Positions 12,387 to 59,413 of a DNA stretch of 64,000 bases are shown here, piece by piece (the first letter of the stretch is position 1; every line of letters begins with the position of its first letter). Both the position numbers and the translations under genes were made by a program. The notes under the pieces are model-generated. The model was given only the letters and a program-made list of their open reading frames with translations, did no database searches and was not told where the DNA came from. Source of the stretch: Minicystis rosea (GTDB taxonomy: Bacteria; Myxococcota_A; Polyangia; Polyangiales; Polyangiaceae); assembly GCA_001931535.1 (NCBI GenBank), contig CP016211.1:4247573-4311572 (forward strand), given 5' to 3'.

Positions 12387-12387
12387 C

Positions 12388-17171: not shown

Positions 17172-19490
17172 TCAGTTGAGGTCGATCGGATCGCCGATGA
17201 CCTGAACCTTGCCGCCTTGGAGCAGGGCGTCGGCTTCGGCCTTCACGGAGACCGCCTTCCCATCCACCTTCACCGAGTCCTTGCCCTTGACGATGATCTC
17301 GGTGCCTTCGAGCGTGATCTTCCCCGAGCTCTCCATCACGATCTTGGCCTTACCGCACTTGATCTCGATCTTCTTCCCGGCTTTGACGCTCTTCACGAGC
17401 CCGACCATCTCGTTGCTCATGAGGCCGACGGTCGTGCTCATGGCGCCGCCGACGGTCACCGAGTACATGCCGCCGACGGTCAGCGATTTGGCGAGGCCTA
17501 CCTTTTCGCTCGAGGCCTTTCCAACCGACTCGCTCTTCTGACCGCCGATCTTCACGCGCTGGCTCTTGCCGACCTTGACGCTCTCGTTCACGCCGACGAC
17601 GCGCGTGCGGCTCTTCCCCACCGTCTCGCGCTCGCTCCCCTTCACCTGCTTCACGCGGTCTTTGCCGATGGAGATCTCTTCGTCGTTCGCCACCACCTTT
17701 TGGCGATCGTGACCGATGACGACGGACTCGTCGTTCTTCACGAGCTTCTTCCGGTCGTGCTCGATGGTGATGGCCTCGTCGTTCTGGACGAGCTTCTGCC
17801 GATCGTGCGCGATGACGATGGTCTCGTCGTGGTTCACGATCCGCGTGCGATCGTGCTCGATCGTGATCTTCTCGTCGTGCTCGACCTTCTCCGTCCGGTC
17901 GTGGCCGATGGTGATGGTCTCGTCGTGCTTCACGAGCTTGTCGAGATCCTTCTCGGCTTGGATGTAGATCTGCTCGCGCCCCTTCGCGTCCTCCAAACGG
18001 ATCTCGTTGAAGCCGCCGCCGCCCGGGGAGGATTGGGTCTTCCACCCGCTCTGCGTCTTGTTGGCCGGCAAGGCGTAAGGCACGCGCTGCGTGGCCGTGT
18101 AGACACGGCCGGTGATCACGGGCCGATCCGGATCGCCGCCGAGGAAGTCGACGAGGACCTCCTGTCCGATGCGCGGCACGTTGATCATGCCGAAGCCGCC
18201 CCCGCTCCACGGGTGGCTCACGTGGATCCAACAAGAGCTGTTGTCATCCATCCGGCTCTCGCGATCCCAGTGGAAGTGCACGCGCACGCGCCCGAGCTCG
18301 TCGGTGTGGATCTCTTCGCCGGCGGGGCCGACCACCGTGGCGCTCTCCACACCGGAGATCTTCGGCCGCGGCGTCACGAGCGGCGGGCGGAAGGGCTGAT
18401 CCGTGCGGCGCGCCTCGCAACGATGGGTCCAGGCGCCGTCGTGCGTCCCGCGATGCGACGACTCGACCACGAGCACGGGCTTGCCTTTGCCGAGCTCGGC
18501 GCGCGGATGATCGAGGATGTCGAGCACCACCCCGGGGGCGAGATCGATGGCGTTGGTGTCGAACGAGCACACGCGCGCGCCGGCCCGCTTCGCTTCGAGG
18601 CGCTTCTTCGCGACGGACGCGCCCTCGCGCTCGTCGGTGCGCGTGCGGCCCTTGTCGTCGCCGAAGGGCGCGTCCCCCGCGGGCTCGGCGCCGAAGCTGA
18701 ACGCGCCGGGCACGTAGTGGAACCGCTCGAGCTTCGACTCCAGCCCGGCCTCCGGCGCGGAGGCCGCGGCGAGAAGCGCGTAGCCCGCGGGCAGGCGCGG
18801 GTCGTGATCGCGCACCGTGTAGCGGCCCGGGCGCACGCGTTGCCCGACGCGCACCTCGGTGACGTACTCGCGCGCGACGGCGCGGGTGGGTTTGTCTTCG
18901 AAGTGGAGGGACGGCCGAGCCTCGCCGGATTGCGGCGCGTCCGAGAGCACGAGGCGCGTCTCGGAGTCGCCCTGCTCGAAGAAGAACGAGATGCCCGCCT
19001 CCTCCAGCATCCGCGAGACGAAGGCGAAATCGGACTCGGCATATTGCACGCGATACTCGCGCTTCTTGTAGGTGCCCGAGATGCGGAGCTCGGGATCGAC
19101 GCCCCATTCCCGCAGAATCTTGCGCGCGATGTCGAGCTCGGAGAGCTGCTGGAACATGCGGTGATTGCGCCGCTGCGTGCTGAGCCAGAGGGCTGGGACG
19201 ATGTGAAGCTGATACGTCGAGAGGCCGGCCTCGGAGACCGCGACCTGCTGGATGTCCTTGCAGATCCCCGTCCAGAACCGGGTCGAGGAGAGCGCCGCCG
19301 TGCCGCCGTGCATGAGGAAGCTCGCCGGCCGGCCCACCACCGCATCGAAGTCGATGTTGGCCTGATCGGAGACCGCGACGATGACGATCTCGAAGAGCGC
19401 CGACATGCGCTCCTCCACCGCGAAGCTCCGGACGTCGAGCGCGTCACCGGAGTCGACGCGGACCACGAGGTTGCGCAGAGCGGCTGTCAT
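17172..19490 (-). CDS. vgrG: VgrG, the type VI secretion spike protein (Phage_GPD plus gp5-like C-terminal beta-helix repeats).
   Basis: The N-terminus MTAALRNLVVRVDSGDALDVRSFAVEERMSALFEIVIVAVSD is typical of VgrG. Also present are QLHIVPALWLSTQ..., the central GPD region and WIHVSHPWSGGGFGMINVPRIGQEV. A C-terminal array of 16-aa repeats (HDRTEKVEHDEKITIE, HDRTRIVNHDETIVIA, and so on) is encoded by DNA repeats at about 17600-17960. The start was chosen at the internal Met 19490 (the track start is 19607). Confidence 0.85.
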   Translation of the reverse strand: MTAALRNLVVRVDSGDALDVRSFAVEERMSALFEIVIVAVSDQANIDFDAVVGRPASFLMHGGTAALSSTRFWTGICKDIQQVAVSEAGLSTYQLHIVPALWLSTQRRNHRMFQQLSELDIARKILREWGVDPELRISGTYKKREYRVQYAESDFAFVSRMLEEAGISFFFEQGDSETRLVLSDAPQSGEARPSLHFEDKPTRAVAREYVTEVRVGQRVRPGRYTVRDHDPRLPAGYALLAAASAPEAGLESKLERFHYVPGAFSFGAEPAGDAPFGDDKGRTRTDEREGASVAKKRLEAKRAGARVCSFDTNAIDLAPGVVLDILDHPRAELGKGKPVLVVESSHRGTHDGAWTHRCEARRTDQPFRPPLVTPRPKISGVESATVVGPAGEEIHTDELGRVRVHFHWDRESRMDDNSSCWIHVSHPWSGGGFGMINVPRIGQEVLVDFLGGDPDRPVITGRVYTATQRVPYALPANKTQSGWKTQSSPGGGGFNEIRLEDAKGREQIYIQAEKDLDKLVKHDETITIGHDRTEKVEHDEKITIEHDRTRIVNHDETIVIAHDRQKLVQNDEAITIEHDRKKLVKNDESVVIGHDRQKVVANDEEISIGKDRVKQVKGSERETVGKSRTRVVGVNESVKVGKSQRVKIGGQKSESVGKASSEKVGLAKSLTVGGMYSVTVGGAMSTTVGLMSNEMVGLVKSVKAGKKIEIKCGKAKIVMESSGKITLEGTEIIVKGKDSVKVDGKAVSVKAEADALLQGGKVQVIGDPIDLN

Positions 19491-19642
19491 CTCCGCACCC
19501 CTGCTCGAGAACGAGGCAGCGTTCATCATTCCTCCCAAGGTGGGCCAAGCGACGAAGGGTGAAAGGGAGCTAACACGCTTCCCGGCGTCGCGAAAGCGCT
19601 GTCGCACGCGACGCCGTCACCCGCCCGTGATCACACTGCCTC

Positions 19643-29966: not shown

Positions 29967-31280
29967 GTGTCGCTCCGCCGCCTGATCGTCCTCGCGCCCG
30001 TCGCGTTCGCAGCGCTCGCCGGGCTCGCTTGTGGCTCGAAGACTCCGCCCGCCGGCACGCCGGCCGGGCCCACGATGACGTGCCCGCCGCCGATCGGCGT
30101 CGTGCCCAAGGAAGACTGTCACGAGATCTCCGAAGACTTCGGCGCGCTCGACGTCAACGGCGCGCTCCCGCTGGCGAGCCAAGGCAAGGGCGCAGAGCCG
30201 CGCATCGCCGCCATCAAGGCAGTCGGCGCGCTGGCCGCGTCGATCAAGGAGCAGCGGGTCAAGCTCTGCGAGCAGACGCAGAAGTGCAAGGTCTCCGCGG
30301 CCGAGCACGAAGAGCAGGACAAGAAGCTCACGAGCGCGATGCGCTCGCTCATCGATCTCTGGAACAAGCGGCGCTTCTCCGGCACGGACGAGGTCATCCG
30401 CTTCCGCGAAGCGGTGCGCGCGATCGACATGCGGGTCAACGGCAACGACGGCGTCGCCCCCGCGGCCGCCGCCAAGCCGCCGCGCACCTTCAAGGCCGAG
30501 GAAGCGTTCAGCCGCGTGGAGGACGCGGGCGTGGCGTTCCGCGTGGCGGGTACGTCGATCACGGTGAGCGCCACCGCCGCCGGCAACCGCGATGCGCTCC
30601 GCACCAAGGGCGACGCGGTCACGCTCGTCGGCGGGCATCGCTACCGCGTGAAGGTGATGGGTCAGTACACGCCGACGACGGCGCCCGTGATCCAACCGGG
30701 AGACGAGCTCACCGCGCGCTTCAAGTACCGCGCGGCGCAGGCTGCCGATCTCCAAGTCGCGCTGCGCTCGCTCGAGGATCCGGAGGGTGAGGGCGCGGAG
30801 AGCATCCGCGTCGGCGCCGGCGAGAAGAACGCGCGCGAGCTGAAGCTCACCGCCGATCCGCAGCAGACGGGCTTCTTTCTGGGCTTCGCGGTGAAGGGCG
30901 CGCCCGTGGAGCTCGATGACGTCGAGCTGCTCCGCGGCGGCAAGGTGATCTTGGCCGCGCGTGGTGAAGGCGCCGAGGACGCGGGCGTGAAGTCGGAGTG
31001 CTCGGTGTCGAAGGACAAGCCGCTCTCCGGCAAGGGCTCGCTGCAGTGCGCGCCGGGCAACGGCGATCGGCTGACGCTCGGCAAGCCCGAGGGCTACCTC
31101 GTCATCACGCTGCGCGATTCGGCGGGCGAGCGATCGACGCTGCGCACGCTGTCGCTCGCCGGCGGTCGCAGCGTCGACGCCGCGCTGCGCGAGGACGGCG
31201 GAGAGGTGACGATCTCGCTGGTGGGCGCAGGCTCGGCGACGATCGATCAGATCGAGGTCACCGATCTCGGCAGCGGCTGA
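29967..31280 (+). CDS. Lipoprotein (437 aa) of unknown function.
   Basis: GTG start with AAGGT upstream. The signal peptide MSLRRLIVLAPVAFAALAGLACGS has a lipobox AGLAC. Composition is normal throughout, with Cys pairs and a C-terminal beta-rich region. Confidence 0.7.
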   Translation: MSLRRLIVLAPVAFAALAGLACGSKTPPAGTPAGPTMTCPPPIGVVPKEDCHEISEDFGALDVNGALPLASQGKGAEPRIAAIKAVGALAASIKEQRVKLCEQTQKCKVSAAEHEEQDKKLTSAMRSLIDLWNKRRFSGTDEVIRFREAVRAIDMRVNGNDGVAPAAAAKPPRTFKAEEAFSRVEDAGVAFRVAGTSITVSATAAGNRDALRTKGDAVTLVGGHRYRVKVMGQYTPTTAPVIQPGDELTARFKYRAAQAADLQVALRSLEDPEGEGAESIRVGAGEKNARELKLTADPQQTGFFLGFAVKGAPVELDDVELLRGGKVILAARGEGAEDAGVKSECSVSKDKPLSGKGSLQCAPGNGDRLTLGKPEGYLVITLRDSAGERSTLRTLSLAGGRSVDAALREDGGEVTISLVGAGSATIDQIEVTDLGSG

Positions 31281-31425
31281 GAGAGAACCCCATCGGTGAG
31301 GCACGGTACCGCCACGAGCGCTGCTCGTGGCTGGGTCGCCGAGCCATGTGCCGAAGGTGGGAAGTGAGCGCGCGAACGATGGGTCGCGTTCCGGCGCGGC
31401 TCAATCGTTTGAGCTCAAACGATTG

Positions 31426-31953
31426 TCACTCGCCGCCGGCGTGGCGCGCGGGGGCGAAGGCGGTCGGCCACGTGGCGTCGGCGACCAGCTCGAAGGCGGC
31501 CATCGCCTCGCCGACGGCACGGGCGACCTCGGAAGAGGACGCATCCGGCGTGACCCACGGGAGCTCGCGGAGCGAGGCTGCGGAGGCCGGGATCCAGCGG
31601 AGGCTGCGGGTGACGAGCACCACCGGGAGGCCTTGCTTGCGCAGCTCCTGCGCGAGGCGAACACCGCCGGCGGGCGCAGGCGGGAGATCGAGGCAGACCA
31701 AGCACAAATCGAAGCGCGAGGCGGCTGCGGGTGAAGGCGCGTCGATGAGGCTGCCACGCAGCACGTCGCGCGCGTCGTCGACCGAGGGAGACTCGTAGAT
31801 GTCGACGTTGCCGAGCGCGTCCTCGATCGACTCGATGAGCGCGTTGCACGTGGAGGCGGTGGCGTCGTGCGCCAAGAGGAGCCGCCACCTGCGCGCGAGG
31901 CGCGTTCCGGATCCAGGTTCCACGAGCTCTTCCAACTTGTGACCCGTTCCCAT
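31426..31953 (-). CDS. Stand-alone receiver (REC)-like domain protein, probably atypical.
   Basis: From the internal Met (GGAGG upstream of the ATGATG), the sequence RLLLAHDATAS...FDLCLVCLDLPP...LPVVLVT resembles a CheY-like fold. It has a single acidic residue at the first acidic pair (HD rather than DD) and no clear conserved Lys. Confidence 0.45.
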   Translation of the reverse strand: MGTGHKLEELVEPGSGTRLARRWRLLLAHDATASTCNALIESIEDALGNVDIYESPSVDDARDVLRGSLIDAPSPAAASRFDLCLVCLDLPPAPAGGVRLAQELRKQGLPVVLVTRSLRWIPASAASLRELPWVTPDASSSEVARAVGEAMAAFELVADATWPTAFAPARHAGGE

Positions 31954-32303
31954 CATTCCCTCCAAAGCGCGACCGTGATCGGATTGTTCGGGATACGTGA
32001 GCGGCACGAACCACCTGCGCTCGCAACGACGGCGGTCCAGAGCCTCGGATGGTACCAGCCCTTGAGCCGAGCCCACCGACCATTTATAGGGAACCGCGCC
32101 GCGGCTCACCTAGTGGAATGCACGCGGTCCTTCGGCCGACGCGGCGCATCCACGTGGCCGACATCACGGCGATCGTGATGGTCTCATGAGCGTCCCCACG
32201 CGCTACGGGACACGCCTTAGGGCCTAAGGCACGCATCCCGACAGCCAAAGCAAGACGGCACGAACCACGACGTCGGCGAAGCCGGCGCAGAAGCGAGAAG
32301 ACG

Positions 32304-32576
32304 ATGAACCGACTGCAAGCCACGAGCAGGTGCGAGTGCCAGGCGATCCTCACCGCGGTGCTCGACGACAAGCGGCACGTGCTTCAGGGCACGGCGAGCC
32401 GGCTCGGGGCGAAGGAGACGGCGCCCGCGCACAGCATCGGTGCCGATCGCGAGAACTTCGACATCGGCTGGCTCTGCCCGTTCTGCGGTCGCAACACGCT
32501 GCGGACCTTCTCGGCAGGCGCGCTCCGCACGATCGCCGCGAGCGAGCCGGCCGACACCGCCGGCAAATCTGCCTGA
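32304..32576 (+). CDS. Small zinc-ribbon-like protein (90 aa).
   Basis: Two Cys pairs are present: CECQ near the N-terminus and CPFCGRN 45 residues later. It is the only frame in this region with non-Arg-rich composition. Confidence 0.35.
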   Translation: MNRLQATSRCECQAILTAVLDDKRHVLQGTASRLGAKETAPAHSIGADRENFDIGWLCPFCGRNTLRTFSAGALRTIAASEPADTAGKSA

Positions 32577-32696
32577 CGCAACGCAGGGCACGAGAGCTCG
32601 GCCGGCTGCCGCTCCGAGCGAGCCGGCGCCCGCGAGCCGTCATCGAGCGTCCCGTGTACCCGATGAGGCGTGCGGGACGCTCTCCGGCCGATCATC

Positions 32697-32832
32697 GATC
32701 GGTTGGAGCTCGAACGAATCCTCTCACCATCGAGCGCGAAGGACGGAAGGTCGAGATTGTTGGAGCTCCAACGAATCGCGGCGGTGGTGCAGCGCGCCGG
32801 ACGGATGGGAATGTTGGAGCTTCGACGAATGG
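32697..32832. repeat. Three spaced copies (period about 56 bp) of a palindromic element, TTGGAGCTC(C/G/T)(A/G)ACGAAT, whose perfect core is TTGGAGCTCCAA.
   Basis: Cores lie at 32703-32714 (ttggagctcgaa), 32759-32770 (ttggagctccaa, perfect) and 32814-32825 (ttggagcttcga). They are intergenic, between convergent small ORFs. The same core with the same flanks (atcgTTGGAGCTCCAAcga) recurs at 47706-47717 and 47748-47759. Confidence 0.6.
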
Positions 32833-32844
32833 CGGGCAGCGCTG

Positions 32845-33192
32845 TCAGGCCGCGGCCGAGAGGGCGGCGGCGAGGCGGGCAGTGACGGCGGCGCGCGCTT
32901 GGTCACCGGCGCGCGTGCGGAGCCAACGGGCTTGATGCAACGCGCGGGCAGCCTCGTCGACGAGACCCTGACGCGCGGCCTCGGCCCCGAGCAGCGTGTA
33001 CGTACGGGCGCGCCACTCGTCGAGCGCGCAGGCGCGGCGAAGGAACACCAGGGCACCGCGATCATCCCCCTTGCGACGCGCACGACGCGCGCGGGCGACG
33101 AGCGCCTCGACGGGATCGTCCGGCGAAAGCGCGGGCTCCGCGGGCCTCGAATCCATTTGCTGACGCTTCGCCGCTGATCGTCTCCGACTCAT
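32845..33192 (-). CDS. Small TPR-like protein (115 aa).
   Basis: GALVFLRRACALDEWRARTYTLLGAEAARQGLVDEAARALHQARWL looks like a single TPR unit. Composition is moderate but Arg/Ala-biased, so confidence is limited. Confidence 0.35.
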   Translation of the reverse strand: MSRRRSAAKRQQMDSRPAEPALSPDDPVEALVARARRARRKGDDRGALVFLRRACALDEWRARTYTLLGAEAARQGLVDEAARALHQARWLRTRAGDQARAAVTARLAAALSAAA

Positions 33193-33386
33193 GCCCCCAC
33201 CCCCCCAGGAGGCGATGCATCACGTCGGCCAACCTTGGGCAACTTTTCCGAGCACGCGATCGGGGGCTCGATGCGCGATTCGATGCGAGGGTGCGCACGA
33301 AAGGCGCAGGCCGCGCGCTCGAACGTCGCTGACGGTGGAGAAGATCGGGTGCCGAGGTGACGGCGAGACGAGATGGCGCGCGGAGC

Positions 33387-33510
33387 GAGATCAGCGCCGA
33401 CTCGTTCTGTGCGGGGTTCGGGGCCGCTTGCGACCCCATCGTGAGATCAGCGCCGGCTCGTCCGGCGCGGGGGTTAGGGCTGCTTGCGGCCCCATCACGC
33501 GGCGCGCTTG
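33387..33510. repeat. Tandem duplication of a roughly 57-bp hairpin-containing unit at the 3' end of the hydroxylase gene.
   Basis: Unit 1 reads gagatcagcgccgactcgttctgtgcggggttcggggccgcttgcgaccccatcgt. Unit 2 reads gagatcagcgccggctcgtccggcgcgggggttagggctgcttgcggccccatcac. Related copies lie at 34270-34340 and 29713-29760. Confidence 0.55.
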
Positions 33511-34136
33511 GTGTCGTCGCCCATCGTGCCGAAGACCCAGTCCCAGAGCGGGGACGAGACGCCGTAGCGAGCCTCGAGGCCGGTGTGGTGATGGATCATG
33601 TGATAGCGCTTGATCCAACGGCCCCAGCCCGAGCCCATGCGGAAGTGATGCACGGCGTAGTGCGTGCCGTCGTAGGCGAGGTAGCCGATGCCGAAGCCGA
33701 CGAAGAGCGGGTCGACGTAGGTCGCGCCGGCGACGATGCGGAAGAGGATGTAGAAGACGACGCCGAGCGGGATGCTCGCGCCCAGCGGCATCACCAAGCG
33801 ATCGCTGTCCTGCGGGAAATCGTGGTGGACGCCGTGGAGGACGAAGAACATGCGCCGCTGCCACGGACGCGGGCCGCTGAAGTGGAAGACCCAGCGGTGG
33901 AGCGTGTACTCGGCGAAGGTCCACACGAGGAGGCCGAGGAGGAAGAGGCCGACGAAGGCCATCGCTCCGACGCCGGCGCGCACGGCGTGGTACGCCACGT
34001 ACGCGAGCACCGGGAGCCAGAAGACGAAGGGCGTGGCCGGATGGATGCGTGAGAAGCGCTCGATGAGCGGGGTCTCGAACATCTGACACGTGACCGGACG
34101 CGTTGCGTTCGGGCGGTCCTGGACGGAGGCCGACAT
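33495..34136 (-). CDS. Fatty acid hydroxylase superfamily (sterol desaturase/CrtZ-like) integral membrane di-iron enzyme.
   Basis: The histidine boxes are HRWVFH, HGVHHDFP, HYAVHHF and HMIHHH, set in hydrophobic segments. The protein is 213 aa. Confidence 0.8.
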   Translation of the reverse strand: MSASVQDRPNATRPVTCQMFETPLIERFSRIHPATPFVFWLPVLAYVAYHAVRAGVGAMAFVGLFLLGLLVWTFAEYTLHRWVFHFSGPRPWQRRMFFVLHGVHHDFPQDSDRLVMPLGASIPLGVVFYILFRIVAGATYVDPLFVGFGIGYLAYDGTHYAVHHFRMGSGWGRWIKRYHMIHHHTGLEARYGVSSPLWDWVFGTMGDDTKRAA

Positions 34137-34310
34137 GGAGATCGTCCTAACGCAATCGGCGTGTGTCGGCCAGACTTCGTGACGAGGATTCGACGGTGCG
34201 TAGCGGGCTACGCTCGATCACGGACGTGGCTTGGGAGGCGCGATCGGAGTGAGGGCGTAGGCCGGCTTGTCCGGTGCGGGGCTTGGGCGCAGCGTGCTCA
34301 GCGCGGGATT

Positions 34311-34336
34311 GCCCGCCGCTTGCGGCCCGATCGTGG
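34311..34336 (-). terminator. GC hairpin of the CGCTTGCGGCCC family immediately 3' of the kinase/AAA/TPR gene.
   Basis: gcccgccgcttgcggcccgatcgtgg begins 7 nt after the stop at 34343. It is preceded by a second related block, gtgcggggcttgggc, at 34275-34290. Confidence 0.4.
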
Positions 34337-34342
34337 TCATGA

Positions 34343-37300
34343 TCAGGAGCGAAGGTCGGCGGACGAGAGGGAGCCGCCGGTGAGGACGAGCGTCTGGGCG
34401 TTCTCCGGGACGGCGGTGAGGAAGCGCTCGCGCCAAGCCGGGTCGCCGATGCGCGCGGCGCGCGCCAGGAGGCGGCGGCGCGCGAGGGTAGCAGCGCGGG
34501 AGAAGGCTTCGCGATCGCCCGACGCGGCGAGCGCTTCGACGTGAACGAGGCGGACGAGGGCTTCACCGTCTTCGATGGAGCCGAGCTCGTCGACGATGGC
34601 GAGCGCTTCGCGCGCGAGGACGAGCGCTTCGGCGGCGCGACCTTGGCGGAGGACGGCGCGCGCATGCAACGCCAAGGCAGGCGCACGAAGAGGCGGCGTG
34701 GTGCGGAGCAGATCGGTCGCGGCCGCGGCCTCGCGTTCGGCGCGGGCCGGATCGGCGGCGGAGAGCGCGATCTCGGCGAGGTAGCTGCGCGCGGCACCTT
34801 CGTGGCGCGGGTCCCCGAGGCGGCGGAAAGCGTCGGCGGCGCGCAGCTCGAGCTGCTCGGCTTCCTCCAAGCGGCCGAGGTGCGCGAGCGTGCGGCCGAG
34901 GTTCTGCGCGGCGGCGCTGGCGACGTCGACGAGGCCCATGCGCTCCGCGGCGGCGAGGGCGGCGCGCAGGGCGTCCTCGGCGCTGTCGAAGTCGCCGAGC
35001 TGCGCGAAGTTGCAGCCGAGGTTGGAGCGGACGGCGCAGGCGTTGCGACGATCGCCGGCGCTCTCCAGCGAGGCGAGCGAGGCTTCGAAGCGCGCGAGGC
35101 TCTCGCCCGGATCACCGGCGAGGCAGGCGCGAATGGCGGCGAGCTGCTCGAGCGCGGCGGCGACGGGCGCTTCGAGCATCGAGGGATCGGGCGCGACTTT
35201 GCGGAGGCGATCGATCATCCCATCGGCGGCGGCGTAGCGGCCGGCCATGACGAGGACGGTGGCGCACTCGCAGAGGCAGACGAGCTGCGCGCTGGCGGCA
35301 CCGCGGGCCGGCGCGGTGCGCGCGACGAGGGACATGCGATCCTCGACGCGATCGTAGCCGGCGAGGCGCCCGGCCGCGACCACGCTGAAGCCCACGGCGC
35401 GGAACCACGCGGCGGTGCCGATCGGTAAGAGCGCGGTGGCACCGGCGGCGCTCGCCTCCGCCTCCGCGAGCGCGCCGCGCCAGAGATGCGCTTCGGCTTG
35501 GATCAAGCGGAGGTAGCCGAGCTCTTCGCCTTCGGCGCCGCAGTCGACGCCGAAGGCGGCGCGCTCGACGGCGACGGTGAGATCGTCGGCTTCGAGGGCG
35601 AGCTCGGCCGCGCGACGGAACCAGCGGGCCGCGCGAGCTGGATCGGCGCCGCGACGGAAGTGCTCTGCGAGCGTCATGGCGTCCGCGTGCGCGTTGCGCT
35701 CGAGCCACTCGCCCGCGAGCATGTGGCCGAGCGCGCGATCCGGGCCGGTGAGCGTGGCGTAGGCGGCCTCGCGGACGAGGGCGTGCGCGAAGACGTAGAC
35801 CGCGTCGCCGGTGGGATCGGAGGCGCTCACCGGGATGACGATCTCGCGCGCGGCGAGCGCGTCGAGGGACGCGGCGACCTCGGCCTCGGATCGGCCGGGG
35901 ACCATGGCGAGGATGCCGCCGCGCGTGAAGCGTCGACCGAAGACGCTGGCCGCGCGCAGGACCCGCTTGGCCTCAGGGCCTTCGGCGTCGAGGCGCGCTT
36001 CGACGGTGCCGAGCACCGAGTCGGGCAGCGTCGCCTCGCGGCCCGCGGCGACGGCGCGCACCAGCTCTTCGAGGTAGAAAGGGTTGCCGTCGGCGCGATC
36101 GAGGACGCGGGCCACCACCTTCGCGTCAGCCTCGGCGCCGAGCGCGGTGCACACGAGCTGCTCGGAGGCCCGGCGTGGAAGCGGGCCCAACCGGATGAGC
36201 TGCACGTCGCGCTCGGCCCAGAGATCCGGGAAGCGATCGTGGATCTCGGGGCGCGCCAGCGCGAAGAACATGAGCGGCAGATCGCGGAGGTTGCGCAGCG
36301 TCGAGTCGACGAGGCGCATCGATGCGGCGTCGCTCCACTGGAGGTTGTCGAGGATCACGAGGACGGGCTGAGCGGCGCACTCCGCGGCGAGCCACTCCTC
36401 CCACGCGGCGCGCATGCCGTCGCCCATCAAGCGCGCGCTCTCGCGGGCCGCGCGGATGGCGCCGTCGCCGCCGTCCGGAAAGGGCGTGCCCGCGAGCTCG
36501 CCGAGGAACGCCGACGCGCGCGCCGCGACGGCGCGATCGAGGTGGCGCGCGACGCGGGCGCGCAGCTTGGCCTGACGGGCGGCGAGCGGCTCGCCGTCGA
36601 GGATGCCCGCGGCGCGGCGGACCAGATCGGCGATGATCGCGAAGGCCGAGCCGGCGCCGAGGCCTTCGCACGATCCGATGAGCACCTCCACGCGCTCGCT
36701 GCGCCGGCGCAGCGAGGTGAGGAGCTCGTGGCGGAGGCGGGTCTTGCCCATGCCCGCGTCGCCCACGACGAGGATGGCGCTCGCCGCCGGCTCGGAGACG
36801 CATCCATTGAAGATGCCCTCGAGCATCGCGAGCTCTCTCGCGCGGCCGATGCAGGGCATGGTGCGGCCGAGGAGAAGCGGCACGCCGTCGAACGCAGCGC
36901 GCTCGGGTTGGATGAAGCCGCCGGGGCCTTGTCGATCGACGCGGATGCGCCCCCCGATGAGCTCGGCGGTGGCCTCGTCGACATAGGCGCCCGTGGTGCG
37001 ACCGGCGCCGAGGGAGAGCACGGCGCGCTCGATCAAATCGCCGTCCACCACCTGCGCGGACACCTCGCCGCGGCCGCTGATCACGCACACGGGGAGCCCG
37101 CCGAAGCGCTCCTTGATGGCGAGGGCGCAGCGCGCGGCGCGCTCGGCGCGATCCACCGCGCTGCCCTCGCCCCACTGCGTGACGAGGAGCGAGCCACCGG
37201 CGAGCGCCATGGCCCGACCACCATGCGGCTCGACCGCGGCCTTGATGGCCGCGAGGCTCGGACGCCGGCGGCGGGCGGTGTCGTCGTCGACGCTGGGATC

Positions 37301-38239
37301 ACCGGCGAGGACGAGCGTCACGAGGCGCTGCTCGGAGAGCGTGAGCGAGGGCAAGGCCGCCGGCGGCGTGGAGACCGTGGCCGTGGGCGCGCCCAATCCA
37401 CGCACGAGATCGAGCGACTCCAACCGATCGAGCTCGGTGAGCACGGCCGCGGCATCGGATGGACGCGCGGCCGGATCGCGCGCCATCATGCGGGCCACGA
37501 GATCGTCGATCGGCTCGGGGATCGAAGGGCGGAGGATACGCAGGCGCGGCACCTCCTGCAGGAGGATCTTGGCCAGCATCGCCATGACCGTCGTCCCCTC
37601 GAACGCGGGGCGACCGGCGAGGCACTCGAAGAGGACGCATCCGAGCGAGAACAGATCCGCGCGCGGATCGTGCGCGGGCGCGCCCAGGATCTGCTCCGGC
37701 GCGATGTAGCCCGGGGTGCCGAGGAGCGCGCCGGTGCTGGTGAGGCGCTTGCCGTTCTCGCGACCGAGGCGGGCGATGCCGAAGTCGACGATCTTCACCC
37801 GCGCCACGTCGCCGCCGACGAGAAACAAGTTGCTCGGCTTGAGATCGCGGTGCACGAGGCCGCGCGCGTGCGCGAAGGCGAGCGCGTCGAGAGCGCGGCG
37901 GGCCAGCGTCAGCGTCTCGGCCGCGGTGAGCCCGCGGCGCAGCAAGCGAGCCGCGAGGTCCTCCCCGTCGAGCCATTCCATGGCCAGGTAGTGCTCGCCG
38001 GCGGCGGTGACGCCGTGGGCCACGTGCCGCACGATCCCCGGGTGGGAGAGGCCGGCGAGGATGTCGCCCTCGCGCGCGAAGCGCTCGACGTCGTGCGCAT
38101 CCTCTTCGCGGAGGATCTTCACCGCGACCCAGCCCCCGCCGACGCGGTCGCGCGCGCGGAACACGGTGCCCATCGCGCCTGCACCCGCTCTGCGCAAGGC
38201 CTCGAAGCGCTCCTCGAACACCACCGCAGTGACCACCAA
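34343..38239 (-). CDS. Ser/Thr protein kinase fused to a cyclase-like segment, a P-loop NTPase (AAA/STAND) domain and C-terminal TPR repeats (1298 aa).
   Basis: The glycine loop reads GAGAMGTVF, with VAVK, HRDLKPSNLF, DFGIAR and APEQ. The P-loop reads GDAGMGKTRL. A long helical/TPR C-terminus ends ...RERFLTAVPENAQTLVL. The overlapping 2009-aa plus-strand ORF is antisense junk. Confidence 0.85.
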   Translation of the reverse strand: MVVTAVVFEERFEALRRAGAGAMGTVFRARDRVGGGWVAVKILREEDAHDVERFAREGDILAGLSHPGIVRHVAHGVTAAGEHYLAMEWLDGEDLAARLLRRGLTAAETLTLARRALDALAFAHARGLVHRDLKPSNLFLVGGDVARVKIVDFGIARLGRENGKRLTSTGALLGTPGYIAPEQILGAPAHDPRADLFSLGCVLFECLAGRPAFEGTTVMAMLAKILLQEVPRLRILRPSIPEPIDDLVARMMARDPAARPSDAAAVLTELDRLESLDLVRGLGAPTATVSTPPAALPSLTLSEQRLVTLVLAGDPSVDDDTARRRRPSLAAIKAAVEPHGGRAMALAGGSLLVTQWGEGSAVDRAERAARCALAIKERFGGLPVCVISGRGEVSAQVVDGDLIERAVLSLGAGRTTGAYVDEATAELIGGRIRVDRQGPGGFIQPERAAFDGVPLLLGRTMPCIGRARELAMLEGIFNGCVSEPAASAILVVGDAGMGKTRLRHELLTSLRRRSERVEVLIGSCEGLGAGSAFAIIADLVRRAAGILDGEPLAARQAKLRARVARHLDRAVAARASAFLGELAGTPFPDGGDGAIRAARESARLMGDGMRAAWEEWLAAECAAQPVLVILDNLQWSDAASMRLVDSTLRNLRDLPLMFFALARPEIHDRFPDLWAERDVQLIRLGPLPRRASEQLVCTALGAEADAKVVARVLDRADGNPFYLEELVRAVAAGREATLPDSVLGTVEARLDAEGPEAKRVLRAASVFGRRFTRGGILAMVPGRSEAEVAASLDALAAREIVIPVSASDPTGDAVYVFAHALVREAAYATLTGPDRALGHMLAGEWLERNAHADAMTLAEHFRRGADPARAARWFRRAAELALEADDLTVAVERAAFGVDCGAEGEELGYLRLIQAEAHLWRGALAEAEASAAGATALLPIGTAAWFRAVGFSVVAAGRLAGYDRVEDRMSLVARTAPARGAASAQLVCLCECATVLVMAGRYAAADGMIDRLRKVAPDPSMLEAPVAAALEQLAAIRACLAGDPGESLARFEASLASLESAGDRRNACAVRSNLGCNFAQLGDFDSAEDALRAALAAAERMGLVDVASAAAQNLGRTLAHLGRLEEAEQLELRAADAFRRLGDPRHEGAARSYLAEIALSAADPARAEREAAAATDLLRTTPPLRAPALALHARAVLRQGRAAEALVLAREALAIVDELGSIEDGEALVRLVHVEALAASGDREAFSRAATLARRRLLARAARIGDPAWRERFLTAVPENAQTLVLTGGSLSSADLRS

Positions 38240-45931: not shown

Positions 45932-47911
45932 GTGCCACTGCTTTGGCCGATCGCCGTCGTCGCGCTGAGGCCCATTTCGTGCGGCGCGGTGCGATGGCGG
46001 GCGGGCGGCGTGCCGCGGGTCAGCATCATCGCCAAGGCCACCTTCGGGATGGTGCACGAAGGTCGAGCACGGCTGCTCCCGCCGCTCGATGTGATCAGCG
46101 AAGATCGCATGCGCGCGTCCGGCGCCCTCGACGAAGCTTCCGATCTCGCGCCTTACCTCCCGTGCGCCGGTGTGACGCTGAGCGGCCACGCGCATGCGCC
46201 GGGCGGCCGGCCCGCGACGGCCACGATGGTGCGGCTCTCCATTCATCGAGAGCAGCGCACGTTGCTGGACAAGAAGCTTCACGTCTTCGGTCATCGGCCG
46301 CTCGGGTCGAGCGCTGCGCCGCAACCGTTCCGCACGATCCCGCTGACGTGGGAGCACGCGCACGGCGGCCCCGGCGTCGACGACAACCCCGCCGGCTGTG
46401 GATTGCGCGGGCTGCCGAACATCGTCGATCCCGCCGCCGCGGCGCGCTCGGCGGGCTTCGCTCCGATCGCCCGCACGTGGGGCTCACGGCGCCGGCTCGC
46501 AGGCGCGATCGATCCGGCCGCGCTGCTGAGACCTGCGCCGGAGCTGCCCGATGGATTCGATTTCCGCTGGTTTCATGCGGCGCCCCGCGACCAGCACATC
46601 GAGCTGCTCCGCGGTGACGAGCACGTCGTCCTCGAGGGCATGCACGCCGCGCTTCCGCGCATGTCCACCCGGCTTCCTTCGGCGCGCGTCGAGGCACGCG
46701 TGCACGCGCCCGGCGCGCCGCCACGTCCGGTGGAGATGCTCGCCGACACGCTGGTCATCGACGCCGATCGCCAGACGTTGGCCGTGGTGTGGCGCGGGAG
46801 CTTCGCCGTCGACGCGGCCTTCGGCGACACGCTCGCGCATCTCCGAGCCTACGTCGGGCTGGAGCTGCCGGGCCATCCATGCACGTGGCCCGACGCGGGT
46901 GACATCGCGATGTCCGGCGCGCTGCAGCGGCCGGGATATCCAGCGCCGCCCATGCCGCTGCGCACGACGACGCCGGCCGCCGAGCCGACGCGCACTCCAT
47001 CGGGATACCCCGCGCCGCCCATCCCCATGCGCGCCCAAGCTCCCGCCGCCGATCCTCGCGCGGCCGCGCGCCCCACGGACACGCCGCGACCGCGCTTCTT
47101 CGACGACGCCGAGAAACGCGGCGACCCCAAGGCGATCTCCATCACGGGCATGCGACACGCGAGCGACGCGCATCCATTCCGGCCATCACCGAGCGCCGCG
47201 ATGCCATCCGCGCCCTTCGTCGCGGGATACCCGCCTCCGCCGGCACCGAACGCTGTGATGCCGTCAGCACCGTTCGGAGCTGGATACCCGCCTTCGCCGG
47301 CACCAAACGCTGTGATGCCGTCAGCGCCGTTCGGAGCTGGATACCCGCCTCCGCCGGCACCGAACGCGGCGATGCCATCGGCACCCTTCGTTGCGGGATA
47401 CCCACCTCCGCCCGCGCCGAGCGCAGCGATGGATCCCTCACCGCGAGCGGTGGCCTTCGACGATGACGACCGAACCACGATGCTCGATCTCGGGCCGGCC
47501 CAGGCTCCGCGGCGCACGCCTTTCGCCATCACGGAGCCGGGCGCGCGGCCGTCGGGGCCTTCCCTTCCGCTGCCCGGCGCACCGTGGAGCCCGCGCGTGG
47601 ACGCGCCCGTGCCGCCGCTCGCCGGCGACGAGACCTTGGAAACGAAGGCCGTCGACGTGCTCACGACAGCAGCGCCAACGCCCGTCGTCCCGCCGGCTCC
47701 AATCGTTGGAGCTCCAACGATCGACCAGCCGACGGCCGCGCCAATCGTTGGAGCTCAAACGATCGACGTCCTCGCGCACGCCAACCTGGAGGCGACCGAT
47801 CTGCGCGACGCCGATCTGGAGCGGGCCAACCTCTTCGCGGCGAAACGCGCCACCACGAACCTGAACGGTGCCAACACCGCGGACGTGATCGAGATCGATC
47901 CGGAAGCATGA
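45932..47911 (+). CDS. DUF2169 domain protein (third paralog) with internal 19-aa tandem repeats and a C-terminal pentapeptide-repeat segment.
   Basis: The N-terminal core reads VSIIAKATFGMVHEG...VTLSGHAHAPGG...FAPIARTWGSR...RWFHAAPRDQH. Four copies of MPSAPF(V/G)AGYPP(P/S)PAP(N/S)A(V/A) are encoded by 57-bp DNA repeats (47195-47430). The C-terminus reads LAHANLEATDLRDADLERANLFAAKRATTNLNGANTADV, typical of pentapeptide repeats. GTG start. Confidence 0.75.
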   Translation: MPLLWPIAVVALRPISCGAVRWRAGGVPRVSIIAKATFGMVHEGRARLLPPLDVISEDRMRASGALDEASDLAPYLPCAGVTLSGHAHAPGGRPATATMVRLSIHREQRTLLDKKLHVFGHRPLGSSAAPQPFRTIPLTWEHAHGGPGVDDNPAGCGLRGLPNIVDPAAAARSAGFAPIARTWGSRRRLAGAIDPAALLRPAPELPDGFDFRWFHAAPRDQHIELLRGDEHVVLEGMHAALPRMSTRLPSARVEARVHAPGAPPRPVEMLADTLVIDADRQTLAVVWRGSFAVDAAFGDTLAHLRAYVGLELPGHPCTWPDAGDIAMSGALQRPGYPAPPMPLRTTTPAAEPTRTPSGYPAPPIPMRAQAPAADPRAAARPTDTPRPRFFDDAEKRGDPKAISITGMRHASDAHPFRPSPSAAMPSAPFVAGYPPPPAPNAVMPSAPFGAGYPPSPAPNAVMPSAPFGAGYPPPPAPNAAMPSAPFVAGYPPPPAPSAAMDPSPRAVAFDDDDRTTMLDLGPAQAPRRTPFAITEPGARPSGPSLPLPGAPWSPRVDAPVPPLAGDETLETKAVDVLTTAAPTPVVPPAPIVGAPTIDQPTAAPIVGAQTIDVLAHANLEATDLRDADLERANLFAAKRATTNLNGANTADVIEIDPEA

Positions 47912-58924: not shown

Positions 58925-59039
58925 CGCGCCCCCGCGCCGGCTTCGCCCTCCTCGCGAAGCCGGCGCACCACGGCTCCCCCCGAGCCGCTGTCTCCAATCC
59001 CTCCCCGATCCGTCGAACCCAACCCACTGCCAACGGCGG

Positions 59040-59257
59040 AGGTGTGCTGCGCGTTGGGCGACCCGGTGGAAGCGTTCCGGAGGGTGTCCTGCGCGTTGGG
59101 CGACCCGGTGGAAGCGTTCCGGAGGGTGTCCTGCGCGTTGGGCGACCCGGTGGAAGCGTTCCAGAGGGTGTGCCGCGCGTTGGGTGACCCGGTGGAACCG
59201 TTCCGGAGGGTGTGCTGCGCGTTGGGCGACCCGGTGGAACCGTTCCGGAGGGTCCGG
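59040..59257. repeat. 39-bp tandem repeat, about 5.6 copies, in a convergent intergenic region.
   Basis: The unit gt(c/g)ctgcgcgttgggcgacccggtggaa(g/c)cgttcc(g/a)gagggt starts at 59040, 59079, 59118, 59157 and 59196, plus a partial copy. It contains a near-palindrome GGAAGCGTTCC. No frame gives a plausible protein. Confidence 0.8.
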
Positions 59258-59413
59258 TAACGCCGTCGCCACCACGGAAGTGGCGGAAGCCGGCGTCGGT
59301 GACGCCGTTTCCACCGAGGGAGCGGCGAAATCGGCGCCCAAGCTGGCGAGCTCGAGCGCCGAGGGTGGCGACTTCCGTGGCGGCGGGTCGGTGCGGTGGA
59401 GACGGCGGGGCGA

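What the first reader, a model, noticed from the sequence alone, without database searches (positions are those of the whole stretch)
32697..32832. Palindromic 16-bp element (core CGTTGGAGCTCCAACG) present as spaced arrays at two distant loci, one intergenic and one inside a DUF2169 gene
Three copies with about 56-bp spacing lie in an intergenic region here, at 32703-32714, 32759-32770 and 32814-32825. Two more with 42-bp spacing lie at 47706-47717 and 47748-47759. The flanks are also shared (atcgTTGGAGCTCCAAcgatcg). Within the DUF2169-pentapeptide gene the element is in frame (PIVGAPTID, twice). Strikingly, one frame of the intergenic locus reads SVGARTN / IVGAPTN / NVGASTN. Possible explanations:
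- a dimeric-regulator operator array;
- a REP/MITE-like mobile palindrome;
- a decayed copy of the same C-terminal coding repeat.
A 12-16-bp perfect palindrome occurring five times in 64 kb of 70% GC DNA is not expected by chance.
Basis: seen in the sequence. Interest (0 to 1): 0.55.

Follow-up and report, generated by a model that had tools for sequence, protein, structure and literature searches.

The report
Dispersed 20-bp palindromic motif in myxobacteria
The repeated palindrome is real and belongs to an apparently undescribed family of 20-24 bp symmetric DNA motifs scattered through some myxobacterial genomes. It is kept at the nucleotide level even inside conserved enzyme genes, so it is most likely a binding site for an unknown dimeric protein rather than a protein repeat or a jumping element.

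Summary
The consensus is (cg)ATCGTTKGAGCTCMAACGAT(cg).

The window is Minicystis rosea. Collection scans found the same 20-mer about 80 more times, almost all in Polyangiaceae-type Myxococcota. About 76% of sites lie outside genes or at gene edges, and 24% lie inside genes, in all three reading frames.

Several results show a constraint on the nucleic acid sequence:
- **Ortholog conservation:** the 20 nt stay identical between orthologues whose genes are only about 76% identical.
- **No insertion in PanC:** in pantothenate synthetase (PanC) the motif lies on an ungapped catalytic segment. It was built stepwise by substitutions, some of which changed amino acids (7, 4, 1, then 0 mismatches).
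- **Independent half-sites:** the two halves vary independently of each other.

The intergenic copies in M. rosea are lineage-specific. Four syntenic relatives have gaps of 1-36 bp without the motif at both convergent gene junctions, except one whose second junction could not be delimited. Only the palindrome is shared between loci, not a larger unit.

The decayed-coding-repeat idea is rejected. REP/MITE insertion is rejected for the coding copies. A classical promoter operator does not fit the positions.

Best reading (about 0.45): a selected binding site for an unidentified homodimeric protein, with a chromosomal rather than promoter role. The protein and the genome-wide copy number are unknown.

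The parts
31404..31423 (.). Perfect consensus copy of the T/T type, ATCGTTTGAGCTCAAACGAT, inside the 22-bp palindrome 31403-31424. It lies 2 bp beyond the stop codon of the minus-strand gene 31426-32109, in the 145-bp gap facing the plus-strand gene 29967-31280.
   Evidence: The RNA hairpin is -11.9 kcal/mol, z -3.2. The corresponding gaps in relatives L153-L156 are 1-28 bp and lack the motif.
32699..32718 (.). Array copy 1, degenerate: TCGGTTGGAGCTCGAACGAA, 5 of 20 mismatches to the consensus.
   Evidence: It does not fold better than shuffles (z +0.48).
32756..32775 (.). Array copy 2: ATTGTTGGAGCTCCAACGAA, 2 of 20 mismatches, with a perfect 14-bp core GTTGGAGCTCCAAC at 32759-32772.
   Evidence: The hairpin with its flanks is -15.3 kcal/mol, z -3.2.
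32810..32829 (.). Array copy 3, degenerate: AATGTTGGAGCTTCGACGAA, 5 of 20 mismatches.
   Evidence: It does not fold (z +1.1).
32577..32844 (.). A 268-bp spacer specific to M. rosea, between the convergent genes 32304-32576 (+, 90 aa, four-Cys protein) and 32845-33192 (-, 115 aa). It holds the three tandem units of about 55 bp.
   Evidence: Both genes are conserved (72% and 68% identity to L153). The same junction is 4 bp in L153, 31 bp in L154 and 36 bp in L155, with no motif. Only the palindrome matches other loci.
47702..47721 (.). Perfect copy of the G/G type, ATCGTTGGAGCTCCAACGAT, a 20-bp perfect palindrome. It lies in frame in the linker of DUF2169 gene 45932-47911 and is read as IVGAPT with rare A/T-ending codons.
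   Evidence: Third-position GC dips locally. The hairpin is -10.6 kcal/mol.
47744..47763 (.). Perfect copy of the G/T type, ATCGTTGGAGCTCAAACGAT, read as IVGAQT. It lies 42 bp after the previous copy and shares its CCA...GAC flanks, so it looks like a local duplication. What remains of the pentapeptide-repeat domain begins two codons downstream.
   Evidence: The same 21 nt occur at the equivalent linker site of a homologue with 39% identity (L001 10226).

Best explanation
The copies are members of a dispersed family of a 20-24 bp dyad-symmetric motif with consensus (cg)ATCGTTKGAGCTCMAACGAT(cg). The family is restricted to certain Myxococcota: Minicystis-, Byssovorax- and Polyangium-type Polyangiaceae, with sporadic hits in other families.

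**Shown.**
- The motif is kept by selection on the nucleotide sequence itself.
- It occurs in non-coding DNA and in all three reading frames.
- It stays identical between diverged orthologues.
- Inside PanC it was assembled in place by point substitutions, some of which changed amino acids.

**Inferred.** The motif is the recognition site of an unidentified homodimeric, sequence-specific DNA-binding protein. Each monomer would read a half-site of 10-12 bp, ATCGTT(T/G)GAG. Because sites ignore promoters and show no common regulon, the role would be chromosomal (architecture, a roadblock or boundary at gene ends, or similar) rather than classical operator control.

**In this window.** The intergenic copies were gained in the M. 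rosea lineage and multiplied by local tandem duplication. Two of the three array copies are now decaying. The two copies in the DUF2169 gene sit in a tolerant linker, and the PIVGAPTID / PIVGAQTID peptides are a by-product of the DNA motif.
For: **The family is real and lineage-restricted.**
- The genome scan gave 44 loci, about 33 of them Myxococcota, with up to 6 exact hits per MAG. I estimate well under one chance hit for Myxococcota genomes.
- The metagenome scan gave 47 non-redundant high-GC instances.

**It does not depend on reading frame.** Copies are read as IVGA[PQ]T, LEL[KQ]R or WSSND, and others lie outside genes.

**Selection acts on the nucleotides.**
- All 20 nt are identical in PanC orthologues that are only 75.8% identical overall. 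Just 3.3% of 20-nt windows in that pair are fully identical.
- The same holds for the ApbA, kinase and TPR pairs (9%, 17%, 17%).
- In the L029/L045 intergenic pair the motif is a conserved island downstream of a separate canonical terminator.

**Coding copies arose in place, not by insertion.**
- The PanC segment IEIVGAPTIREPDGLAMSSRN aligns without gaps to solved PanC structures.
- Other copies lie inside ApbA, ABC_membrane and DUF3536 domains.
- The usual Polyangiaceae peptide at the PanC site is (V/I)VG(L/M)RTV.
- The DNA runs from 7 mismatches (L159) to 4 (L158), 1 (L157) and 0 (L006, L080). The P/Q difference falls exactly on the motif's degenerate position.

**The half-sites behave independently.** The counts were T/T 21, G/T 14 and G/G 5. 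Matching pairs numbered 26 against 23.6 expected, p = 0.48.

**Only the palindrome is shared.** No larger unit recurs between loci.

**No regulon and no recurrent mobile-element gene.** The 142 flanking ORFs fall into 119 Pfam families, and none recurs beyond orthologous pairs.
Against: - No cognate protein was identified. Nothing nearby is a recurrent DNA binder.
- DNA-level and RNA-level recognition cannot be separated, because a palindrome gives the same transcript in either direction.
- Sites are about six-fold enriched outside coding sequence (76%, against my assumed ~12% non-coding DNA in such genomes). Many sit within a few bases of stop codons between convergent genes, which is typical of REP elements.
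- About 13% of copies have flanks that extend the hairpin by at least 4 bp: 11 observed against 1.7 expected. That suggests selection on structure at some sites.
- The distribution is patchy. No exact hits came from Sorangium genomes, and there were none in 42.6 kb of four syntenic relatives. This needs an accessory partner protein, or a drive mechanism.
- The window holds 6 copies in 16 kb, while MAGs gave only 3-6 exact hits each. The true copy number in M. rosea is unknown.
Confidence: 0.45

Rival explanations
1. REP-like selfish palindrome. A short extragenic repeat is spread or maintained by a dedicated enzyme (such as a RAYT-type Y1 transposase) or by another drive mechanism. Hairpin formation at the 3' ends of genes would be its main physical property.
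For: - 76% of copies are non-coding or at gene edges.
- Many lie just past stop codons between convergent genes: window 31404, L009, L020, L033, L032, L136.
- M. rosea gained them in gaps that are 1-36 bp in relatives.
- Copies form irregular tandem clusters spaced 15, 24, 26, 30, 42 and 54-57 bp apart.
- A subset has extended hairpin flanks.
- The phylogenetic distribution is patchy.
Against: - Coding copies overlay conserved domains; PanC, the one aligned residue by residue, has no indel and was built by graded substitution.
- Copies are held identical between diverged orthologues.
- The motif is perfectly dyad-symmetric, with no asymmetric GT[AG]G-type head.
- Nothing beyond 20-24 bp is shared between loci, and the flanks show no repeat beyond a preferred self-complementary CG, so a target-site duplication cannot be told apart from palindrome extension.
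- No Y1/RAYT signature appeared in 520 neighbouring ORFs, and none was among the Pfam families listed (the 25 with most members, of 119) for 142 flanking ORFs.
- Exact copies per MAG are few.
Confidence: 0.22
2. RNA-level element. The transcribed palindrome forms a hairpin (an 8-bp stem with an AGCU loop) that a trans-acting RNA-binding protein or RNase recognises, or that acts as a 3'-end, stability or termination signal without a U-tract.
For: - Perfect copies fold at -10.6 to -15.3 kcal/mol with z about -2.5 to -3.2.
- Many copies lie in 3' regions.
- Some have covarying extended stems and G-T positions: L001 7857 and L033.
- The degenerate K/M position could lie in an enlarged loop.
Against: - About 45% of copies carry a mismatch at the fourth pair from the apex, with no depletion relative to independence.
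- No U-tract terminator was detected in 31200-33300.
- In L029/L045 a canonical terminator already precedes the motif.
- All 20 positions are conserved, including the 'loop', across unrelated genes, and there is no Rfam match.
- Hairpins inside catalytic-domain coding sequence have no obvious role.
Confidence: 0.13
3. Classical operator array for a dimeric transcription factor that controls the adjacent genes.
For: - The motif has dyad symmetry and independent half-sites.
- It forms arrays.
- Some copies lie on the 5' side of genes (18 of 85); in one case the motif ends 1 nt before a start codon (L034).
Against: - The intergenic window copies lie between the stop codons of convergent genes, and the others lie inside a gene.
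- No promoter-like sites were found there.
- Neighbouring genes share no function (119 families among 142 ORFs).
- A quarter of sites are deep inside ORFs.
Confidence: 0.07
4. Uptake-signal-like molecular drive. The motif would be favoured by a DNA-uptake or recombination bias, as with DUS/USS, and so accumulate by point mutation even in coding DNA.
For: - The PanC site evolved in place, stepwise, with amino-acid changes.
- A subset forms terminator-like inverted structures.
- The motif is lineage-restricted.
Against: - In MAG loci the density is orders of magnitude below the roughly 1 per kb I recall for known uptake sequences.
- The motif is itself a long palindrome, unlike DUS/USS.
- No competence link was tested.
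Confidence: 0.05
5. Decayed paralogous coding repeat or plain chance. The intergenic array would be a remnant of the DUF2169 C-terminal repeat.
For: One frame of the spacer reads SVGARTN / IVGAPTN / NVGASTN.
Against: - That frame has the lowest third-position GC.
- The spacer lies between conserved convergent genes that nearly abut in relatives.
- Only the palindrome is shared with the gene.
- The motif occurs in three frames and outside genes in many genomes.
- Chance is excluded.
Confidence: 0.01

Closest known systems
Dispersed palindromic chromosomal binding sites (ParB-parS, Noc-NBS, SlmA-SBS, MatP-matS)
   Same: Short, fully conserved palindromes read by dimeric proteins. They are present at a few to tens of copies and are placed regardless of coding status. 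They overlay genes without indels and are conserved at orthologous positions. The description of these systems rests on my own knowledge; the properties of this motif come.
   Different: - The sequence is unrelated to the parS consensus TGTTNCACGTGAAACA as I recall it.
- It is longer (20-24 bp) and strongly enriched outside coding sequence.
- Its distribution within the phylum is patchy.
- No cognate protein and no regional (origin or terminus) clustering could be shown.
REP / BIME elements with RAYT transposases
   Same: A short palindrome that prefers extragenic DNA, is often found at 3' ends between convergent genes, forms irregular local clusters, has hairpin potential, and shows lineage-specific expansion.
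   Different: - It is perfectly symmetric, with no asymmetric head.
- A quarter of copies lie inside ORFs, and these overlay conserved domains rather than being inserted.
- At least one copy was built by graded point substitution.
- Copies are conserved between diverged orthologues.
- No RAYT was seen near any copy.
DNA uptake sequences (Neisseria DUS, Pasteurellaceae USS)
   Same: A motif that accumulates by point mutation, is imposed on coding sequence and shapes the encoded peptide. It also occurs as inverted structures at gene ends (my own knowledge for DUS/USS; for this motif).
   Different: DUS/USS are 9-12 bp, not palindromic, and occur at about one per kb. This motif is a 20-bp palindrome that was found only a few times per MAG.
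Rickettsia palindromic elements (RPE)
   Same: A palindromic repeat found both between genes and in frame within protein-coding genes.
   Different: RPEs are 100-150 bp insertions that add residues. Here the copies are 20 bp and replace existing codons without any length change.

Membership tests
REP/RAYT elements | Strictly extragenic location | tested here: not met
   20 of 85 non-redundant copies continue one reading frame on both sides. Several lie inside Pfam domains.
REP/RAYT elements | Imperfect palindrome with a conserved asymmetric head (GT[AG]G) | tested here: not met
   The consensus is fully dyad-symmetric. The preferred flanks G..C and C..G only extend the palindrome.
REP/RAYT elements | Associated RAYT (Y1 transposase) gene flanked by the repeat | tested here: inconclusive
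   No Y1/RAYT motif in 520 neighbouring ORFs (crude regex). No such family among the 25 families listed (of 119) for 142 flanking ORFs; families hit by a single ORF were mostly not shown.
REP/RAYT elements | High copy number (hundreds per genome) | not testable with these tools
   3-6 exact hits per MAG against 6 copies in 16 kb of this window. No mismatch-tolerant whole-genome scan was possible.
MITE | A defined unit of about 50-500 bp with terminal inverted repeats and target-site duplications | tested here: not met
   BLAST of both spacers against the window and all loci found only the 20-24 bp palindrome shared. The flanks show no repeat beyond a preferred self-complementary CG, which reads equally as palindrome extension, so this is not a clear target-site duplication.
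Rickettsia-type in-frame palindromic insertions | The element adds residues relative to homologues without it | tested here: not met
   The PanC segment carrying the motif aligns without gaps to the PDB PanC chains 2ejc and 7tot. Homologues have the same length at the site.
Transcription-factor operator | Located in promoter regions of a functionally coherent regulon | tested here: not met
   The window copies lie between convergent stop codons or inside a gene. No promoter-like sites were found. Neighbours span 119 unrelated families.
Transcription-factor operator / dimeric binding site | Dyad symmetry with half-sites that vary independently | tested here: met
   Among 47 instances there were 26 homotypic pairs against 23.6 expected, p = 0.48.
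parS/NBS/matS-type chromosomal sites | A palindrome placed irrespective of coding status and conserved at orthologous positions | tested here: met
   The motif is also a conserved island in the L029/L045 intergenic DNA.
parS/NBS/matS-type chromosomal sites | A cognate ParB/Noc/SlmA/MatP-like protein and regional clustering on the chromosome | not testable with these tools
   No such gene was found in the window. GC skew in the window shows no origin or terminus switch. Chromosome-wide positions were unavailable.
DNA uptake sequences | Very high density (about 1 per kb) of a short non-palindromic motif | tested here: not met
   Only 12 of about 85 high-GC loci held a second copy within several kb, and the motif is a 20-bp palindrome.
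Intrinsic terminator | GC-rich hairpin followed by a U-tract | tested here: not met
   No terminator-like site in 31200-33300. In L029/L045 a separate canonical terminator lies upstream of the motif.
Protein-coding repeat (DUF2169 linker / pentapeptide) | All copies lie in paralogous coding repeats in one frame | tested here: not met
   Copies occur in three frames and outside genes. The codons used are rare A/T-ending ones in genes with third-position GC of 0.77-0.94.
Rfam RNA families | Match to a curated covariance model | tested here: not met
   No hit at E <= 1 in 31000-35000.

The most novel reading that the evidence does not exclude
Some Polyangiaceae-type myxobacteria, including the 16-Mb Minicystis rosea, carry an undescribed accessory system. 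In it a dimeric protein binds a 20-24 bp palindrome scattered over the core chromosome. Selection for these sites would be strong enough to change residues in a conserved enzyme, PanC. Such a system would be a functional analogue of Noc-NBS, SlmA-SBS or MatP-matS (or a new kind of boundary or roadblock factor at gene ends) in a phylum where none is known.
Probability: 0.3. Interest if true: 0.75.

Novelty: new variant of a known kind. Interest (0 to 1): 0.55.

Why it matters
**What it would add.** If the motif is a protein-binding site, it marks an unknown DNA-organising or boundary system in bacteria with some of the largest known genomes. It also gives a ready handle for finding the protein: a 24-bp duplex for pull-down or DAP-seq.

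**A clear example of DNA-level selection.** The PanC series shows a DNA motif being written into a catalytic-domain coding sequence step by step, with amino-acid replacements. That makes it a clean natural case of nucleotide-level selection overriding protein-level conservation.

**A practical warning for annotation.** The peptides IVGA(P/Q)TI, LEL(K/Q)R and WSSND in these genomes can be by-products of a DNA motif rather than protein motifs.

**If it is REP-like instead.** It would be the first such family described for myxobacteria, going by the literature searches I could run.

Tried and rejected
- **Rfam.** A scan of 31000-35000 at E <= 1 gave no match.
- **Tandem Repeats Finder.** It did not detect the arrays because the units are too diverged. 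The repeat finder did detect them.
- **Viral contigs.** The scan gave 0 hits, so there is no sign of a phage origin.
- **Literature.** Searches for the 12-mer, for 'Minicystis rosea' with 'palindromic', and for myxobacteria with REP found nothing relevant.
- **Exact-protein look-ups for M. rosea.** They failed, so the official gene calls and the rest of the genome could not be read. The window genome is also absent from the genome collection scan.
- **A larger mobile unit.** The search found only the palindrome shared between loci.
- **Recurrent neighbouring genes.** All-versus-all BLAST of 520 ORFs found only large paralogous families: histidine kinases and response regulators, Ser/Thr kinases, and DUF2169. 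Pfam on 142 flanking ORFs found no recurrent family. A RAYT regex found nothing.
- **DUF2169 association.** Three unbiased loci (L026, L051/L087, L101), plus L001 and the window, carry the motif in or beside a DUF2169 gene. This is suggestive, but I could not show it is more than tolerance of long linkers in a large gene family.
- **Restriction-site idea.** GAGCTC is not avoided: 82 sites against 22 expected.
- **Origin or terminus clustering.** GC skew across the window shows no switch.
- **CRISPR-like array.** I considered and dropped this on inspection without a dedicated test. The repeats are unequal, the period is irregular, and no cas-type genes were found among the window ORFs I scanned with Pfam.
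- **An unrelated locus.** The 50 low-GC metagenome hits are one conserved locus, mostly from contigs labelled human gut metagenome, with a different variant (ATCGTTAGAGCTCTAACGAT). They are unrelated to this family.
Full report
**1. Checking the observation**

The five copies exist, but they are less perfect than described. TTGGAGCTCCAA is exact only at 32760-32771 and 47706-47717. The copies at 32703 and 47748 have one mismatch, and the copy at 32814 has two. The enrichment is real. The 12-mer with up to 2 mismatches occurs 9 times against 1.41 expected, and none of 100 shuffles reach 9.

Extending the alignment gives a 20-bp consensus, ATCGTTKGAGCTCMAACGAT. With up to 3 mismatches it occurs 4 times in the window against 0.005 in shuffles. 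It lies within a 22-bp perfect palindrome.

The intergenic array is three diverged tandem units of about 55 bp. Its outer copies carry 5 of 20 mismatches and no longer fold. The perfect copies fold at -10.6 to -15.3 kcal/mol.

**2. Local context**

The window comes from Minicystis rosea. Its fatty-acid hydroxylase is 100% identical to the M. rosea protein on a 16.04-Mb contig.

Third-position GC plots and homology show that the array lies in a 268-bp spacer between two real convergent genes. These are 32304-32576 (+, 90 aa) and 32845-33192 (-, 115 aa). They are 72% and 68% identical to their counterparts in a syntenic relative. The copy at 31404 lies 2 bp past the stop codon of gene 31426-32109, again in a convergent gap.

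The gene copies lie in the linker of a DUF2169 protein. They use a run of rare A/T-ending codons (GTT GGA GCT CCA/CAA), which causes a local dip in third-position GC.

The rest of the window is ordinary chromosome: kinases, two-component proteins, VgrG, a second DUF2169 gene, 6-phosphogluconate dehydrogenase and a DinG-like helicase. No promoter-like or terminator-like sites and no Rfam match were found around the array.

**3. A family, not a local oddity**

A DUF2169 homologue that is only 39% identical carries PPPIVGAQTIS at the equivalent linker position. The DNA there is 21 nt identical to window copy 5, including the rare codons.

A scan of one genome per species with ATYGTTGGAGCTCMAACGA returned 44 loci. 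About 33 are Myxococcota, mostly Byssovorax-, Polyangium- and Polyangiaceae-labelled MAGs, with up to 6 hits per MAG. The remainder scatter across unrelated phyla at about chance level. No hit came from the Sorangium genomes. The window's own genome is not in that collection.

A metagenome scan with both degenerate positions left free gave 106 loci. Fifty are one unrelated low-GC locus. After removing redundancy, 47 high-GC instances remain. Viral contigs gave none, and literature searches found no description.

**4. Anatomy of the family**

- **Shared unit.** Only the 20-24 bp palindrome is shared between loci. The rest of the M. rosea spacers matches nothing.
- **Flanks.** They prefer G..C and then C..G, giving CGATCG...CGATCG.
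- **Degenerate position.** The half-site base is T (65%), G (28%), C (6%) or A (1%). The two halves combine as expected under independence: 26 homotypic pairs against 23.6 expected, p = 0.48. Base pairing at that position is therefore not selected. If that pair lies in an enlarged loop, this alone does not exclude a hairpin.
- **Extended flanks.** About 13% of copies have flanks that extend the palindrome by at least 4 bp with unrelated sequence, 11 against 1.7 expected.
- **Location.** Of 85 classifiable copies, 20 (24%) continue one reading frame on both sides. The other 65 lie outside coding sequence or at gene edges. Of those, 21 are on a 3' side, 18 on a 5' side, 22 have no coding signal on either side, and 4 lie between co-directional coding flanks in different frames. 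This is about six-fold enrichment outside genes, if I assume about 12% non-coding DNA.
- **Clusters.** Second copies within a few kb are common, at irregular spacings of 15, 24, 26, 30, 42 and 54-57 bp. In L032, two copies 42 bp apart sit between convergent genes, and one of them supplies the stop codon of a PP2C gene.

**5. Gain in the M. rosea lineage**

Four syntenic relatives (L153-L156) have hydroxylases 78-86% identical to the window's and keep the same gene order. Their convergent gaps are 1-36 bp; the one exception is L156, where the gene corresponding to the 115-aa ORF was not called, so that junction could not be measured. None has the motif with up to 5 mismatches anywhere in 42.6 kb. 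The 268-bp and 145-bp spacers and their copies are therefore specific to M. rosea. The nearest DUF2169 homologue, 67% identical, also lacks the motif in its protein sequence.

**6. Selection on the nucleotide sequence**

Where orthologous pairs are available, the 20 nt are identical although the genes have diverged.

| Pair | Overall nt identity | Share of 20-nt windows fully identical |
|---|---|---|
| PanC, L006/L080 | 75.8% | 3.3% |
| ApbA, L102/L088 | 85.6% | 9.2% |
| Kinase, L016/L041 | 89.4% | 17% |
| TPR protein, L025/L036 | 89.1% | 17% |

In the L029/L045 intergenic pair, a canonical hairpin-plus-T-tract terminator follows the stop codon. The motif then appears as an island of identity in otherwise diverged DNA.

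**7. Coding copies are overlaid, not inserted**

Embedded copies lie inside Pantoate_ligase, ApbA, ABC_membrane and DUF3536 domains. The PanC segment IEIVGAPTIREPDGLAMSSRN aligns without gaps to solved PanC structures.

Among 120 PanC homologues the usual Polyangiaceae peptide at this site is (V/I)VG(L/M)RTV. Only the closest relatives of L006 read IVGAPTI or IVGAQTI. The DNA forms a graded series.

| Locus | Sequence | Mismatches | Peptide |
|---|---|---|---|
| L159 | ATCGTGGGCGCGCGGACCGT | 7 | IVGARTV |
| L158 | ATCGTCGGAGCTGCGACGGT | 4 | IVGAATV |
| L157 | ATCGTTGGAGCACAAACGAT | 1 | IVGAQTI |
| L006, L080 | perfect | 0 | IVGAPTI |

The motif was therefore built in place by point substitutions, some of which changed amino acids. 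The P/Q difference coincides with the motif's own degenerate position. This is hard to reconcile with transposition of a REP or MITE, or with an RPE-type insertion. It is what stepwise selection for a recognition sequence would produce.

**8. No regulon and no mobile-element genes**

All-versus-all comparison of 520 ORFs from the loci recovered only large paralogous families and orthologous pairs. Pfam on 142 flanking ORFs gave 119 families, and none recurs beyond orthologous pairs. These are housekeeping genes such as PanC, PanE, LpxB, GAPDH and LigD. A crude RAYT motif search was negative.

Three unbiased loci, plus L001 and the window, carry the motif in or beside a DUF2169 gene. I could not tell a real association from tolerance of long linkers.

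**9. Interpretation**

The decayed-coding-repeat reading is refuted. A classical operator fits the symmetry but not the positions or the neighbouring genes. REP-like behaviour fits the non-coding preference, the 3'-end positions, the clusters and the lineage-specific gain. It fails on symmetry, on the absence of a larger unit or transposase, on conservation between orthologues, and above all on how the PanC copy arose in place.

The reading that accounts for most results is a selected recognition site for a homodimeric sequence-specific protein. That protein would act on the chromosome irrespective of promoters. The non-coding preference follows from the difficulty of fitting 20 fixed bases into coding sequence. 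The hairpin-extended subset may reflect secondary use at gene ends.

Recognition at the RNA level and a drive mechanism remain possible. The protein partner, the genome-wide copy number in M. rosea and the chromosomal distribution are unknown.

**10. Verdict**

This is a genuine and, as far as I could find, undescribed dispersed palindromic motif family. It is a new variant of known kinds: architectural binding palindromes, or REP-like repeats. Interest is moderate (0.55). Confidence in the binding-site mechanism is about 0.45.

Noticed in passing
window 31404-31423: A sixth copy of the motif, in the commonest T/T form and within a 22-bp perfect palindrome. It lies 2 bp past a stop codon in a convergent gap.
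   Followed up: yes
window 45932-47911: The DUF2169 protein (659 aa) keeps only the last ~35 residues of the pentapeptide-repeat domain. Homologues (P0001, 820 aa; P0011, 994 aa) have about 200-250 aa of it. The remnant begins two codons after the second motif copy. No identical protein was returned from the protein collection, although other M. rosea proteins are there.
   Followed up: partly
window 47187-47431: A 57-bp tandem repeat of 4.3 copies inside the DUF2169 gene. It encodes a 19-aa Pro-rich repeat, NA(V/A)MPSAPF(G/V)AGYPP(P/S)PAP, and coincides with a local dip in third-position GC.
   Followed up: no
window 33387-33496: A 56-bp tandem repeat of 2 copies (83% matches) between the fatty-acid hydroxylase gene and the 115-aa gene. 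Its period is similar to that of the palindrome array, but it does not contain the palindrome.
   Followed up: no
window 59037-59253: A well-preserved 42-bp tandem repeat of 5.2 copies (94% matches), inside a 112-aa ORF at 58925-59260.
   Followed up: no
window 34343-38239: A 1298-aa Ser/Thr kinase with AAA and TPR domains lies between the helicase and the hydroxylase in M. rosea. A similar gene sits immediately upstream of the hydroxylase in L155 (the helicase is not within that locus); it is absent from that position in syntenic L153 and L154. This is gene-content variation next to the motif-bearing spacers.
   Followed up: partly
window 12373-14199, 17172-19616, 45932-47911: Two DUF2169 genes and a VgrG gene lie within 35 kb, so the region is rich in type VI secretion accessory genes. 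Other loci (L001, L026, L051/L087, L101) also carry the motif in or next to DUF2169 genes.
   Followed up: partly
L032 6998-7059; L026 6592-6611: The motif sits at the 3' end of orthologous PP2C phosphatase genes in two genera, with two copies in L032 and one in L026. In L032 the TGA of the T-type half-site (ATC GTT TGA) serves as the gene's stop codon.
   Followed up: partly
L097 317-366: Three overlapping partial copies with a 15-bp period (TGGAGCTCAAACGAT-like), just past a stop codon. This suggests slippage-type local amplification of the motif.
   Followed up: no
L006/L080 (PanC) and L102/L088 (ApbA/PanE): Two of the embedded copies lie in two different pantothenate-pathway genes. This may be coincidence and was not tested.
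   Followed up: no
L054, L056, L060-L062 and about 45 further metagenome loci: A different variant, ATCGTTAGAGCTCTAACGAT, with identical flanks recurs in 50 metagenome contigs of 49-60% GC; those with descriptive names are labelled human gut metagenome. It is one conserved locus of a common organism and is unrelated to the myxobacterial family.
   Followed up: no
L001 10170-10200: Upstream of the perfect copy in the L001 DUF2169 gene, a neighbouring linker repeat (PPPIVGRKI) is encoded by GATCGTCGGACGGAAGATC. This could be a proto-copy or a decayed copy of the motif.
   Followed up: no
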